A stretch of DNA of 64,000 bases from Trypanosoma brucei. Lineage: Eukaryota. The stretch is taken from contig CH464491.1 in NCBI GenBank assembly GCA_000002445.1, positions 4,704,001-4,768,000 on the forward strand. The letters are read 5' to 3'. Positions 26,601 through 29,600 of this stretch are shown piece by piece. A program made the position numbers. Within the stretch, counting starts at the first letter, position 1, and each line of letters starts with the position of its first letter.

Positions 26601-29600
26601 GAAAATATCGAGGCTGAAAACAAGAATGTAAAATCAGGTGAAAAAGCTGTTTGTGGATGGATTGACAACAAATGAAAAGATTACAGTATTCTCGTAAATA
26701 AGAATGTTGCTCTGAGTATGGCTTATTTTTTTGTGAGTTTGATAGAAATTTATAATTCCAAGGAGTTTTCTCAATAATATGAAATTTATGAAAAAATGAT
26801 ATTATGAAATAATTTGCTATAATTTAACACTTTTTGATTAAAATTTTCAAATTAGTAAAATGTTTATAAGAGTGGCATATGGGTGTAAAGTGTAGAGTGA
26901 TAAAATATTAAAAATGAGTGATATTCTAATATGTTATTTTAATAGTAATAGTAAGAGAGTATTTTAAGCGTATTTACTAACATTATGAGGAAAGTGCATT
27001 TAAGTATCGAATGGAGAGACGAAATCAAAGCTTTGGAAAAAGTTTCCATGATGCGATGAGGGTAAGTGAATGAGTGGTTCAGTGATTACGACATGGAGAA
27101 GGCACAAAGAATACTATTTAAGAAAAGAAAAAAGGGGATATAGATAAAATATGCGCAGTTTAAAACTCGAAAGTGGCGATATAGCATTGATAGCACACAA
27201 AGAGATGAGGAAAAGGCAGGGAAAACGAAAAGTGCGAAGGCTAAATGAAGTCGCTTCGTATTCTGTGTAAGAAACAACAGAAGAGTTAAAATCTGCAATG
27301 AATATATGGAGTACAACACACAGTGCAACATCCAGAAACGAAGTAAATATTACATAGGAGAAGGTTGTGCTCTAAAATGTACTAAAAAATGGATAGATTT
27401 TTCTACGGAGGTGATTGTAAAAACAACAATAGAAGTGGTTCAGAAAGCCATGCTTATGGGAAAAACTTGGCGATAGCGGATAATCGGGGTAGTCATCAAG
27501 CGAGGGTGAAAAACTTATACCATATCAGAATTAATCATTGTAACTAGATAGGTTCATTCCAATAAAAATGCATAGACACCAATTTTCAATGCAGAAAGGC
27601 AACTGAATACATATATTGTGCGGAACTATGTGTGACTTAAGGGAACGTTTTAAACAAAACCATAGGTACGAGGTCAAAAATAAGTTGCATACACTGAGAA
27701 TACACACATCATCACATGCATCATAAGTATCTCAAGGAATTACTCGTATAAGTAAACAACTAAGTGGCGCAACTGACATCTTCTATTAAGCTTCCAATGT
27801 TTTTTCTCATAGCACTTTCAAATGTTAAACGTACATTAAGGCATGATGTTTATTATCTTTAAATCTTCACTATTACCGTTGATTTAACATTAAGTGTGTT
27901 TAAGCTCAATATTTCTTTAAGCGGACACAACGGGAAATGTAACAGAGAATGATCCTAAGAAGCCCAGAGTGTTTGTGGTTGTAGTTCAAGCTCATGCAAC
28001 TCAAGGATGATGTAGGCTAATATTGAGTGCCAAACTAGGTAATGTTAAATTATTACAATTGTAATGGAAGGTTTGTATAGAAATGTTCAGAGACCTATGT
28101 GAGTTATGTAATATTTATAAAAACAGAATCCAAGTGATGAGGATGTTGTAGTTCATTTAGGTGGATCCGATGCTATTGCTTCTGACAGAGATAATTATGA
28201 AAAGACAGTGGAGTACTTTATACAGAATACTGCTAAAAGTAAAGAAAAATTTAGTGGAGAAGATATTTTAAAAGAGAAGAAAATTCCCCCTATTTTATTC
28301 ATGACAACATCAGAGTGTTATGCACGGAAGTTAGACTTAACTTTTAACTAAGAACACAGGGATCATATGGAGAGATGCTACTGGTTTTTTAGTAATGGAG
28401 ACAGAAAAGAAGAGGATAAAAAGCTACCGCATTTACTAAAATCACCTCCTAGTGGAAACCCCTATCTTAGTGGTGGTGGTTTAATAGCTAGGGTTTGGGT
28501 ATTTGATAAGTTTGATAAATAGTTTAATGGGATGCTTGAAATGAGTGATGAATGATTTTCAGGGCAGAATATTTACAAACCTCTACTAATATGAAGTGCA
28601 GTTCAGGAAGAAGCTGTTGGAGATCGATTTTTTTTTTTTGAGGAGAGGAATGATTGGTCTGGATTATGAAGAGCGATTTTTCTCTATTCCGCCCAGTGAT
28701 GTAGTTGGAACGGCACCATTTATTCATTTTCCAGTTCAACAAGTTGCATGGGAGGAGGAAGCGAATTAGGTTGTGAAAATATTACTTGGAATAATTAGTT
28801 GAAAATGAGGAAATTTGGTACGAAAAACTTTGGAAGAATTAAAGCTTATACGATAAATGGTAAAAAATGGGTCGTTGAATATGAGAATATTTGTGGCAAT
28901 GTGTTTAAAGAATTGGATTTGTTTAAAGCTAAGAAACTGTAACCATCAGCCCCATGAAGAAGTTAAACAATAAGCAGAAGCTCGTAGCGTGGCCAGAAGA
29001 GTCCCCACGCCAGGAAACAAAAACTAAACCTCAACTCGTTTTTTACAAGGTAATTTACAAGACAATGTTAGTTTTTTTATCCGACTCGTCTTTGCGGCAA
29101 TAATGGCGACCAAGGGTAGATCGAGTACAACAAACGAAAATCGTCCAGACTTTCTAGCACTTTGTCAAGTTTATACGGCGGCACGAGCCTTGAGGAAAAC
29201 AGTATATTCTAGCATTACCGTGGATTTCGACATCGCTGACATTCTTAACTACAATATTTCAGTTGCAACGGAGGAGTGGGGGAATCTGTTCGGGAAATCA
29301 GGGGATAAAAAAGGCTGGAATGCATACAAGAAAAGCCAAGGAGCAAAACTTGGCGACGTAAACTGGGAAAGGGAATGGGATTCTTGGGAAGCGCAAAAAG
29401 AAGCAGCCAAAGATTCAGAGCAAGGTTTGAACAAGGAACGTAATATCCAAAAAAACGAGGCGGGAAAAGAGTAATTAAGGAGTTACGCCAAAGACACAGC
29501 CTTCGAAGCGCTAAAAACCAAACAAGCAGCCGAAACGTTTCCTCAGACTCCGAAAGGCGCCGCGCAAGCGGCACTGAAAATGAAAAAATATATGCGGCGC

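What the first reader, a model, noticed from the sequence alone, without database searches (positions are those of the whole stretch)
27780..28760. Three-copy ~0.95-kb element at a fixed position between 70-bp repeats and VSG starts, upstream of unrelated VSGs
Copies at 27780-28760(+), 43800-44730(-) and 47690-48600(-) share long near-identical stretches. One example is an exact 86-nt reverse-complement match between 28500-28585 and 44020-44105. They also share degraded peptide islands such as ...EDIVIHLDGSD..., ...FMTTSECYA.KLDL... and ...VCKYSALKIIHHSFQASH. Each copy lies in the same orientation relative to its downstream VSG, 0.3-0.6 kb before the VSG start codon and downstream of the 70-bp repeat. 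The three downstream VSGs (A-type 29103, B-type 43226 and another at 47194) are not similar to each other. This suggests either a conserved upstream cassette component or an old pseudogene of an unidentified protein family that has been carried along with different VSGs. It might be ESAG-related (I recall ESAG3-like pseudogenes being common in arrays), but I could not confirm that from the sequence.
Basis: seen in the sequence. Interest (0 to 1): 0.65.

Follow-up and report, generated by a model that had tools for sequence, protein, structure and literature searches.

The report
ESAG3 pseudogenes inside silent VSG cassettes
The three-copy element is a set of dead copies of ESAG3, the trypanosome enzyme gene that adds glucose to the surface coat protein; each copy sits between the 70-bp repeat and a silent coat-protein (VSG) gene, an arrangement already described for Trypanosoma brucei, so the finding is real but ordinary.

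Summary
The repeat is real. Three copies, at 27843-28942(+), 44668-43663(-) and 48573-47487(-), align at 75-77% DNA identity (E down to 6e-168). Each is collinear over aa 1-368 with T. brucei ESAG3 (E 2.4e-90).

All three are pseudogenes, with 5-12 stop codons and 3-5 frameshifts each. Copy 2 also has an 85-nt deletion.

Each lies in the sense orientation of a class-B VSG. It sits about 0.7-0.85 kb downstream of a 70-bp repeat, and its stop codon is 0.16-0.44 kb upstream of the VSG ATG. Weak homology extends 0.4-0.5 kb upstream of the ESAG3 ATG and ends at the stop codon.

Only 3 of about 14 VSG cassettes in the window carry a copy.

The copies are old. dS is 0.65-0.94, and dN/dS is 0.34-0.39 against 0.80 for a neutral simulation. 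Each copy is closer to functional ESAG3 than to the other two copies. This points to separate decay of genes that were once under constraint.

A 119-nt exact tract shared by copies 1 and 2 shows a recent gene-conversion patch.

The literature already reports ESAG3 pseudogenes throughout subtelomeric VSG arrays, and 3' of the 70-bp repeats in Lister 427 BES7 and BES15.

The parts
26841..26995 (+). 70-bp repeat unit(s) heading the copy-1 cassette
   Evidence: Matches the other 70-bp-repeat-like sites of the window, with a (TAA/TAG)n stretch followed by a GT-rich block.
27345..27842 (+). ESAG3 5' flank of copy 1, weakly homologous to the flanks of copies 2 and 3. It includes a polypyrimidine tract and AG just upstream of the ATG.
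   Evidence: Local alignment z = 12 (with copy 2, from 27468) and z = 16 (with copy 3, from 27345). Control spacers from other cassettes give z <= 4. Identity is about 0.45-0.55.
27843..28942 (+). ESAG3 pseudogene, copy 1 (aa 1-368 plus stop). It has 12 in-frame stops, 3 frameshifts and the catalytic change D110G.
28463..28581 (+). 119-nt tract identical to copy 2, read as a gene-conversion patch. It carries two shared stop codons (aa 230 and 241) and W242F/E244G.
   Evidence: The chance of such a run at 76% identity is about 7e-15 per start position.
28943..29102 (+). Short spacer between the pseudogene stop and the VSG ATG. It is not conserved between copies.
   Evidence: z <= 2.2
29103..30211 (+). 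Class-B VSG pseudogene with stops and a frameshift, truncated by an ingi-like retroelement.
   Evidence: Pfam VSG_B E 2.2e-12; tblastn extent; retroelement ORFs.
45351..45535 (-). 70-bp repeat heading the copy-2 cassette
   Evidence: TRF (TTA)n at 45405-45440
44669..45059 (-). ESAG3 5' flank of copy 2
43663..44668 (-). ESAG3 pseudogene, copy 2. It has 6 stops, 5 frameshifts and an 85-nt internal deletion (about aa 149-176).
44019..44137 (-). Copy-2 side of the 119-nt identical tract
41727..43226 (-). Class-B VSG with one in-frame stop, downstream of copy 2
   Evidence: Pfam VSG_B 2e-60 plus C-terminal domain
49390..49732 (-). 70-bp repeats heading the copy-3 cassette
   Evidence: TRF (ATT)n at 49484-49520
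48574..49079 (-). ESAG3 5' flank of copy 3
47487..48573 (-). ESAG3 pseudogene, copy 3. It has 5 stops and 4 frameshifts, and its start codon is ATA.
45680..47278 (-). Class-B VSG with in-frame stops, downstream of copy 3
   Evidence: Pfam VSG_B 1.6e-59 plus C-terminal domain

Best explanation
The three elements are pseudogenes of ESAG3 sensu stricto (family Fam53, the VSG O-glucosyltransferase gene). Each sits with about 0.4-0.5 kb of its own 5' flank in the spacer between the 70-bp repeat and a class-B VSG, within a silent subtelomeric array cassette of a T. brucei-group genome.

Shown here:
- They cannot make the enzyme. Each has 5-12 stop codons and 3-5 frameshifts, copy 2 has a deletion, and catalytic residues are lost in copies 1 and 2.
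- The copies are anciently diverged, and part of that divergence occurred under protein-level constraint.
- One short patch has recently been copied between two of them.

Inferred:
- They are relics of once-functional ESAG3 genes that lay next to VSGs and decayed separately.
- Today they are passive passengers. VSG duplication and transposition uses the 70-bp repeat as its upstream limit and the VSG 3' end as its downstream limit, so whatever lies between is copied along with the VSG.
- As dispersed homologous blocks they occasionally undergo ectopic gene conversion.
For: Identity:
- The stitched translation hits ESAG3 at E 2.4e-90, and cluster members are named ESAG3.
- The frameshift-aware alignment covers aa 1-368 at 64-67% aa identity.
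- Similarity to ESAG3 is far higher than to GRESAG3-like representatives, which reach 25-35%.

Pseudogene status:
- Stop codons and frameshifts are listed per copy.
- D110G occurs in copy 1, and W242F/E244G in copies 1 and 2. D110 and W242 are required for ESAG3 activity (bioRxiv 10.64898/2026.01.27.701950).

Position:
- 70-bp repeats lie upstream and class-B VSGs downstream.

Age and former constraint:
- dS is 0.65-0.94 and dN/dS is 0.34-0.39, below all 200 neutral simulations (mean 0.80, minimum 0.50).
- Each copy is closer to functional ESAG3 than to the other two, and there are few shared derived residues outside the conversion tract.

Recombination:
- A 119-nt exact tract sits in a 76% identity background.

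Not an assembly artefact:
- The start of copy 3 is present at the same place in a T. equiperdum OVI contig.

Literature:
- ESAG3 'is also in VSG arrays' (PMC3607257).
- An ESAG3 pseudogene lies 3' of the 70-bp repeat in Lister 427 BES7 and BES15 (PMC2567434). This is what co-transposition with the VSG predicts.
Against: Passenger status is inferred, not shown. No switching data were examined, and the genome-wide placement of ESAG3 pseudogenes relative to VSGs could not be counted with these tools.

Low dN/dS could also come from repeated gene conversion from functional ESAG3 donors rather than from a functional past of these copies.

Copies 1 and 2 share a stop at W59 outside the identical tract. 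That could mean a shared pseudogene ancestor rather than fully separate decay. It could equally be a recurrent TGG-to-TGA change.
Confidence: 0.88

Rival explanations
1. The block is a maintained cis-acting cassette component: an alternative upstream homology anchor that guides VSG gene conversion or mosaic formation, kept for its DNA rather than its coding capacity.
For: The 119-nt identical tract shows that the copies do recombine. Hertz-Fowler et al. suggested that ESAG3 loci coincide with recombination breakpoints in expression sites (PMC2567434). The element has the same place and orientation in all three cassettes.
Against: Only 3 of about 14 cassettes have it, and there are no remnants in the others. 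The copies are about 24% diverged overall, and the 5' flank is at about 50% identity, as expected for unconstrained DNA at dS of about 0.8. Conservation is strongest at the protein-coding level (dN/dS below neutral), which points to past selection on the protein, not on the DNA.
Confidence: 0.1
2. The copies are processed (retroposed) copies of ESAG3 mRNA inserted independently upstream of VSGs.
For: Homology ends at or within a few nucleotides of the stop codon. An ingi-like retroelement is nearby.
Against: Homology extends 0.4-0.5 kb upstream of the ATG, including the polypyrimidine/AG region, which is more than a mature 5' UTR. There is no spliced-leader remnant anywhere in the window. No poly(A) follows the stop codon.
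Confidence: 0.02
3. One or more copies are intact ESAG3-like genes, and the apparent lesions are sequencing or assembly errors.
For: Some frameshifts lie in homopolymers, for example the T6 run at aa 186 in copies 2 and 3. The literature counts many intact ESAG3-related genes in subtelomeres.
Against: There are 5-12 substitution-type stop codons per copy, copy 2 has an 85-nt deletion, copy 3 has lost its start codon, and catalytic residues are replaced.
Confidence: 0.01

Closest known systems
ESAG3 pseudogenes located 3' of the 70-bp repeats in T. brucei Lister 427 BES7 (VSG 427-3) and BES15 (VSG 427-11) (Hertz-Fowler et al. 2008, PMC2567434)
   Same: The order is the same: 70-bp repeat, then ESAG3 pseudogene, then VSG. 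The gene family is the same and the copies are pseudogenes. Both BES VSGs are class B according to the 2026 ESAG3 preprint, as are the three VSGs here.
   Different: Those copies are in telomeric expression sites, whereas these are in silent internal array cassettes. Sequence relatedness to those copies could not be tested because no BES DNA was available.
Subtelomeric array ESAG3 copies of family Fam53 (Abbas et al. 2018, PMC6152948; Tiengwe et al. 2012, PMC3607257)
   Same: They are ESAG3 sensu stricto, scattered through VSG arrays and mostly pseudogenes. That matches exactly what is seen here.
   Different: Nothing substantive differs. Those papers, as read here, do not spell out the position relative to the 70-bp repeat and the VSG.
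Functional BES ESAG3, a GT-A retaining protein O-glucosyltransferase (bioRxiv 10.64898/2026.01.27.701950)
   Same: Collinear homology over all 368 residues at 64-67% aa identity. The DXXD motif region, Gly loop, W242/E244/Q245 region and H297 all align.
   Different: The reading frames are destroyed. Copy 1 has D110G, copies 1 and 2 have W242F/E244G, and copy 3 has G215D. No enzyme can be made.
GRESAG3 / ESAG3-like core-chromosome genes
   Same: They belong to the same superfamily (Fam53).
   Different: Identity to the window copies is only 25-35%, against 55-67% for ESAG3 sensu stricto. The window copies are not GRESAG3.

Membership tests
ESAG3 sensu stricto (Fam53) | Significant, collinear, full-length similarity to ESAG3 protein | tested here: met
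   E 2.4e-90 with 100% query coverage. aa 1-368 are covered in all three copies.
ESAG3 sensu stricto (Fam53) | Closer to expression-site ESAG3 than to the GRESAG3 lineage | tested here: met
   tblastn identity is 53-61% to ESAG3 cluster members, against 25-35% to the other family representatives.
ESAG3 sensu stricto (Fam53) | Location in the telomeric or subtelomeric VSG context of a T. brucei-group genome | tested here: met
   The copies are flanked by Pfam VSG_A/VSG_B genes and 70-bp repeats. The window is 99.8% identical to a T. equiperdum OVI contig.
Functional ESAG3 enzyme (GT-A O-glucosyltransferase) | Intact open reading frame | tested here: not met
   Each copy has 5-12 stops and 3-5 frameshifts, and copy 2 has an 85-nt deletion.
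Functional ESAG3 enzyme (GT-A O-glucosyltransferase) | Catalytic residues D110/D113, G215-G216, W242, E244/Q245 and H297 | tested here: not met
   Copy 1 has D110G, W242F and E244G. Copy 2 has W242F and E244G. Copy 3 has G215D, with the others retained.
VSG cassette spacer ('co-transposed' DNA between the 70-bp repeat and the VSG) | Lies between the 70-bp repeat and the VSG, on the VSG's strand | tested here: met
VSG cassette spacer ('co-transposed' DNA between the 70-bp repeat and the VSG) | Is copied together with the VSG during duplicative transposition | not testable with these tools
   The only support is indirect: ESAG3 pseudogenes 3' of the 70-bp repeats in BES7 and BES15.
Processed retro-pseudogene | Spliced-leader remnant, poly(A) tail and no 5' flank homology | tested here: not met
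   No spliced-leader match, no poly(A), and 0.4-0.5 kb of 5' flank homology.

The most novel reading that the evidence does not exclude
ESAG3-bearing cassettes may be a lineage specifically linked to class-B, O-glucosylatable VSGs. On this reading they are a relic of a time when the VSG O-glucosyltransferase gene travelled next to its substrates, so that activating such a cassette also delivered the enzyme.

All three copies here precede class-B VSGs. The two whose sequence reaches that region carry a Ser/Thr-containing di-cysteine loop. The two Lister 427 expression sites with an ESAG3 pseudogene 3' of the 70-bp repeats carry VSG3 and VSG11, both class B and O-glucosylated.

With 5 of 5 cases and roughly half to two-thirds of VSGs being class B, this is only suggestive: p of about 0.06 by my rough product.
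Probability: 0.12. Interest if true: 0.5.

Novelty: already known. Interest (0 to 1): 0.15.

Why it matters
It matters little beyond correct annotation. The element is an ESAG3 pseudogene family whose presence in VSG arrays, and occasionally between the 70-bp repeats and the VSG in expression sites, is already documented.

Two small points are of use:
1. The copies show signs of a long functional past followed by separate decay. This fits reports of many intact ESAG3-related genes in subtelomeres.
2. The 119-nt identical patch between two inverted copies about 15.5 kb apart is a clean local example of short-tract ectopic gene conversion in silent arrays, the same kind of event thought to build mosaic VSGs.

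The possible link to class-B VSGs is worth a genome-wide count now that ESAG3 is reported to be the VSG O-glucosyltransferase.

Tried and rejected
- Pfam and PDB sequence searches with the stitched translations found nothing. ESAG3 has no Pfam model, so this says nothing against the identification.
- A second word-indexed protein search with ESAG3 itself returned only its own cluster. The exhaustive HMMER search gave the wider family.
- Look-ups of ESAG3 P0010 and of three window VSG ORFs in public assemblies found nothing. Only VSG 49852-51324 was on record, in T. equiperdum OVI.
- No T. brucei genome or BES DNA was reachable. So no genome-wide count, no comparison of the 5' flank with expression-site ESAG3 flanks, and no DNA phylogeny could be made.
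- The 0.9-kb spacer upstream of the ATG has no open frame in any of the six frames of copy 1, or in the three sense frames of copies 2 and 3.
- Apparent similarity of the upstream spacers to other cassettes turned out to be residual 70-bp repeat sequence. It was removed before re-testing.
- The spacer between the pseudogene stop and the VSG ATG shows no detectable similarity between copies. This may simply be neutral saturation in a short stretch.
- Marcello & Barry 2007 and Berriman et al. 2005 were not held in the paper library.
- An unrelated ORF at 53625-54422 gave no homologues.

Full report

Yes. A blastn of 26001-31000 against the whole window finds, apart from itself, two other places:
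- 48552-47697 on the minus strand: 75.8% identity over 864 nt, E 6e-168.
- 44708-43662 on the minus strand, in two pieces at 75-77% identity (E 5.5e-86 and 1.5e-118), separated by an 85-nt gap in that copy.

Nothing else in the 64 kb resembles the element. tblastn with ESAG3, an nhmmer profile of the three copies, and a family HMM run against the six-frame translation all find exactly three places.

- The 86-nt pairing as written (28500-28585 with 44020-44105) is out of register; only 22 of 86 positions match. A longer exact inverted match does exist: 119 nt, 28463-28581 = reverse complement of 44019-44137.
- The 'peptide island' VCKYSALKIIHHSFQASH is the antisense reading of that tract. EDIVIHLDGSD (copy 2 only) and FMTTSECYA (copies 1 and 3) are in the true frame.

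**2. What is it?**

The stitched translation of copy 1 has no Pfam or PDB sequence match. In the 5.8-billion-protein collection it hits one cluster, at E 2.4e-90 over 100% of the query. The members of that cluster are 368-aa T. brucei 'expression site-associated gene 3 (ESAG3)' proteins.

A frameshift-aware protein-to-DNA alignment gives the following.

| Copy | Coordinates | ESAG3 residues | aa identity | Stops | Frameshifts | Other |
|---|---|---|---|---|---|---|
| 1 | 27843-28939(+) | 1-368 | 64% | 12 | 3 | |
| 2 | 44668-43666(-) | 1-368 | 66% | 6 | 5 | about 28 codons missing |
| 3 | 48573/48552-47490(-) | 2/11-367 | 67% | 5 | 4 | start codon is ATA |

An exhaustive HMMER search with ESAG3 returns 46 family representatives. 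The window copies are 53-61% identical by tblastn to ESAG3 cluster members, but only 25-35% identical to the other, GRESAG3-like representatives. They therefore belong to ESAG3 sensu stricto.

A 2026 preprint reports that ESAG3 is a Mn2+-dependent GT-A O-glucosyltransferase that glucosylates class-B VSGs. Its key residues are D110/D113, G215-G216, W242, E244/Q245 and H297, and D110N and W242A are inactive. At these positions copy 1 has D110G, W242F and E244G; copy 2 has W242F and E244G; and copy 3 has G215D. None of the three can encode the enzyme.

**3. Anatomy and surroundings**

The window holds two convergent VSG arrays. Plus-strand genes run up to about 30 kb and minus-strand genes run from about 38 kb. 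They meet at an ingi-like retroelement with endonuclease, reverse transcriptase and RNase H ORFs at 30687-34964 on the minus strand. About 14 VSG genes or pseudogenes are present.

70-bp-repeat-like units head the cassettes.

For the three cassettes of interest the order is: 70-bp repeat, about 0.7-0.85 kb of spacer, ESAG3 pseudogene (1.1 kb), 160/437/about 210 nt, then VSG ATG. All parts are on the VSG's strand. The total distance from repeat to ATG is about 2.1 kb, against 1.6-2.2 kb in cassettes without the pseudogene.

All three downstream VSGs are class B by Pfam (VSG_B: E 2.2e-12, 2e-60 and 1.6e-59). That VSG is itself a pseudogene cut off by the retroelement. At the DNA level the three VSGs share nothing beyond the usual C-terminal/3' blocks.

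Homology between the copies extends upstream of the ATG. Copies 1 and 2 are similar from 27468/45059, and copies 1 and 3 from 27345/49079. The local-alignment z-scores are 12 and 16, against 4 or less for control spacers once residual 70-bp repeat sequence was excluded. This flank has no open frame and contains a polypyrimidine tract with an AG just before the ATG.

Homology ends at the stop codon. The short spacer before the VSG ATG shows no detectable similarity.

There is no spliced-leader remnant and no poly(A) tail, so the copies are not retroposed mRNAs.

**4. History**

Synonymous divergence between copies is large (dS 0.65-0.94), while dN/dS is 0.34-0.39. Under the same estimator, 200 neutral simulations at a similar overall divergence gave 0.80 +/- 0.12, with a minimum of 0.50. 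Part of the divergence therefore accumulated under protein-level constraint.

Each copy is closer to functional ESAG3 (64-67% aa) than to the other copies (54-60%). Outside one tract, the copies share very few derived residues.

The 5' flank identity of about 0.45-0.55 is what unconstrained DNA would show at this dS.

The simplest reading is that long-separated ESAG3 genes, each next to a VSG, stayed functional for a good part of their history and then decayed separately.

There are three caveats.
- Gene conversion from functional donors could also lower dN/dS.
- Copies 1 and 2 share a TGG-to-TGA stop at W59.
- Copies 2 and 3 share a 1-nt loss in a T6 run.

Non-coding DNA of this age is near saturation. 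For that reason the abrupt end of homology at the stop codon need not be a recombination breakpoint. I cannot tell whether whole cassettes were duplicated long ago, or whether the ESAG3 block was recombined onto unrelated VSGs.

**5. Recent exchange**

In a background of about 76% identity, copies 1 and 2 are identical for 119 nt, and at least 92% identical over about 150 nt. The two copies are inverted and about 15.5 kb apart. The chance of such a run is about 7e-15 per start position.

In this tract both copies differ strongly from canonical ESAG3 and from copy 3, and they share two stop codons. This is a short gene-conversion patch between two pseudogenes.

**6. Source and stability**

An intact VSG of the window (49852-51324) is encoded identically on T. 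equiperdum OVI contig CZPT02001854.1. That contig matches window 58525-49544 at 99.8% identity and runs into the 5' flank and start of copy 3. The pseudogene is therefore at the same place in another T. brucei-group genome and is not an assembly artefact.

**7. Comparison with what is known**

- Abbas et al. [quoted passage not shown]
- Tiengwe et al. [quoted passage not shown]
- Jackson et al. 2013 note that ESAG3 is the one ESAG that is not monophyletic by location (PMC3605285).
- Hertz-Fowler et al. 2008 list an 'ESAG3 pseudogene 3' of 70-bp repeat' in BES7, and ESAG3 pseudogenes between the repeats and the telomere in BES15 (PMC2567434). That is the same order as here. It is what one expects if a cassette is copied from the 70-bp repeat through the VSG.

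The finding is therefore a correct rediscovery of a documented feature.

**8. Mechanism and verdict**

- Best explanation (confidence about 0.88): these are dead ESAG3 genes riding as passengers in the spacer between the 70-bp repeat and the VSG of some class-B cassettes, with occasional short-tract ectopic conversion between copies.
- Maintained recombination anchor (about 0.1): this is not excluded. However, only 3 of about 14 cassettes have the element, the copies are 24% diverged, and the conservation pattern is that of a former protein.
- Retroposed copies and sequencing error are rejected.

One untested lead is the apparent link with class-B, O-glucosylatable VSGs. It holds in 3 of 3 cases here, plus VSG3 and VSG11 in BES7 and BES15. 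Ser/Thr-bearing di-cysteine loops are present in VSGs 43226 and 47278. The numbers are too small to draw a conclusion.

Novelty: already known. Interest: low.

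Noticed in passing
window 30200-35500 (- strand): An ingi-like non-LTR retroelement sits at the point where the plus-strand and minus-strand VSG arrays converge. 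Its ORFs have Exo_endo_phos_2, RVT_1 and RNase_H domains. It truncates the class-B VSG pseudogene that starts at 29103.
   Followed up: partly
window 48402-48942 vs L001:9509-10050: The T. equiperdum OVI contig is 99.8% identical to the window over 9 kb, but only 96.5% identical (19 differences) over the 5' flank and start of ESAG3 pseudogene copy 3. At 9 of the 19 sites the T. equiperdum base equals copy 1, and it keeps ATG where the window has ATA (48575). This could be gene conversion in one lineage or a contig-end assembly effect.
   Followed up: partly
window 11423-11765 / 20784-21148 and 20808-21034 / 61869-61673: Spacers between the 70-bp repeat and the VSG in cassettes without an ESAG3 pseudogene share weak similarity of their own (z = 6-8). 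This suggests other families of cassette spacer.
   Followed up: no
window 53625-54981 (+): Two overlapping ORFs (265 and 189 aa) lie on the strand opposite to the surrounding VSG array. They have no Pfam hits, and the 265-aa ORF has no homologue in the large protein collection. They are probably chance ORFs in spacer DNA.
   Followed up: partly
window 39923-39993 and 5049-5168: There is a perfect (GT)35 microsatellite upstream of the A-type VSG at 39338, and a perfect (TAATAG)20 array next to a 70-bp repeat.
   Followed up: no
window VSGs 43226, 47278, 15579, 19438, 58922, 62287: The class-B VSGs carry a short di-cysteine loop near aa 300-336. It contains Ser/Thr in VSG 43226 (CDGSNNGAC), 47278 (CYGTSSKLC), 15579 (CTTSSQQTC) and 19438 (CDGGTDSHGGAC), but not in 58922 (CNGNAAGAC) or 62287 (CNGVANAGC). 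This is the kind of loop reported to be O-glucosylated by ESAG3.
   Followed up: partly
window 28277-28360 relative to 44237: Copy 2 lacks 85 nt that are present in copies 1 and 3. The missing stretch covers the conserved 'ISPIMFMTTSECYA' segment of ESAG3.
   Followed up: yes
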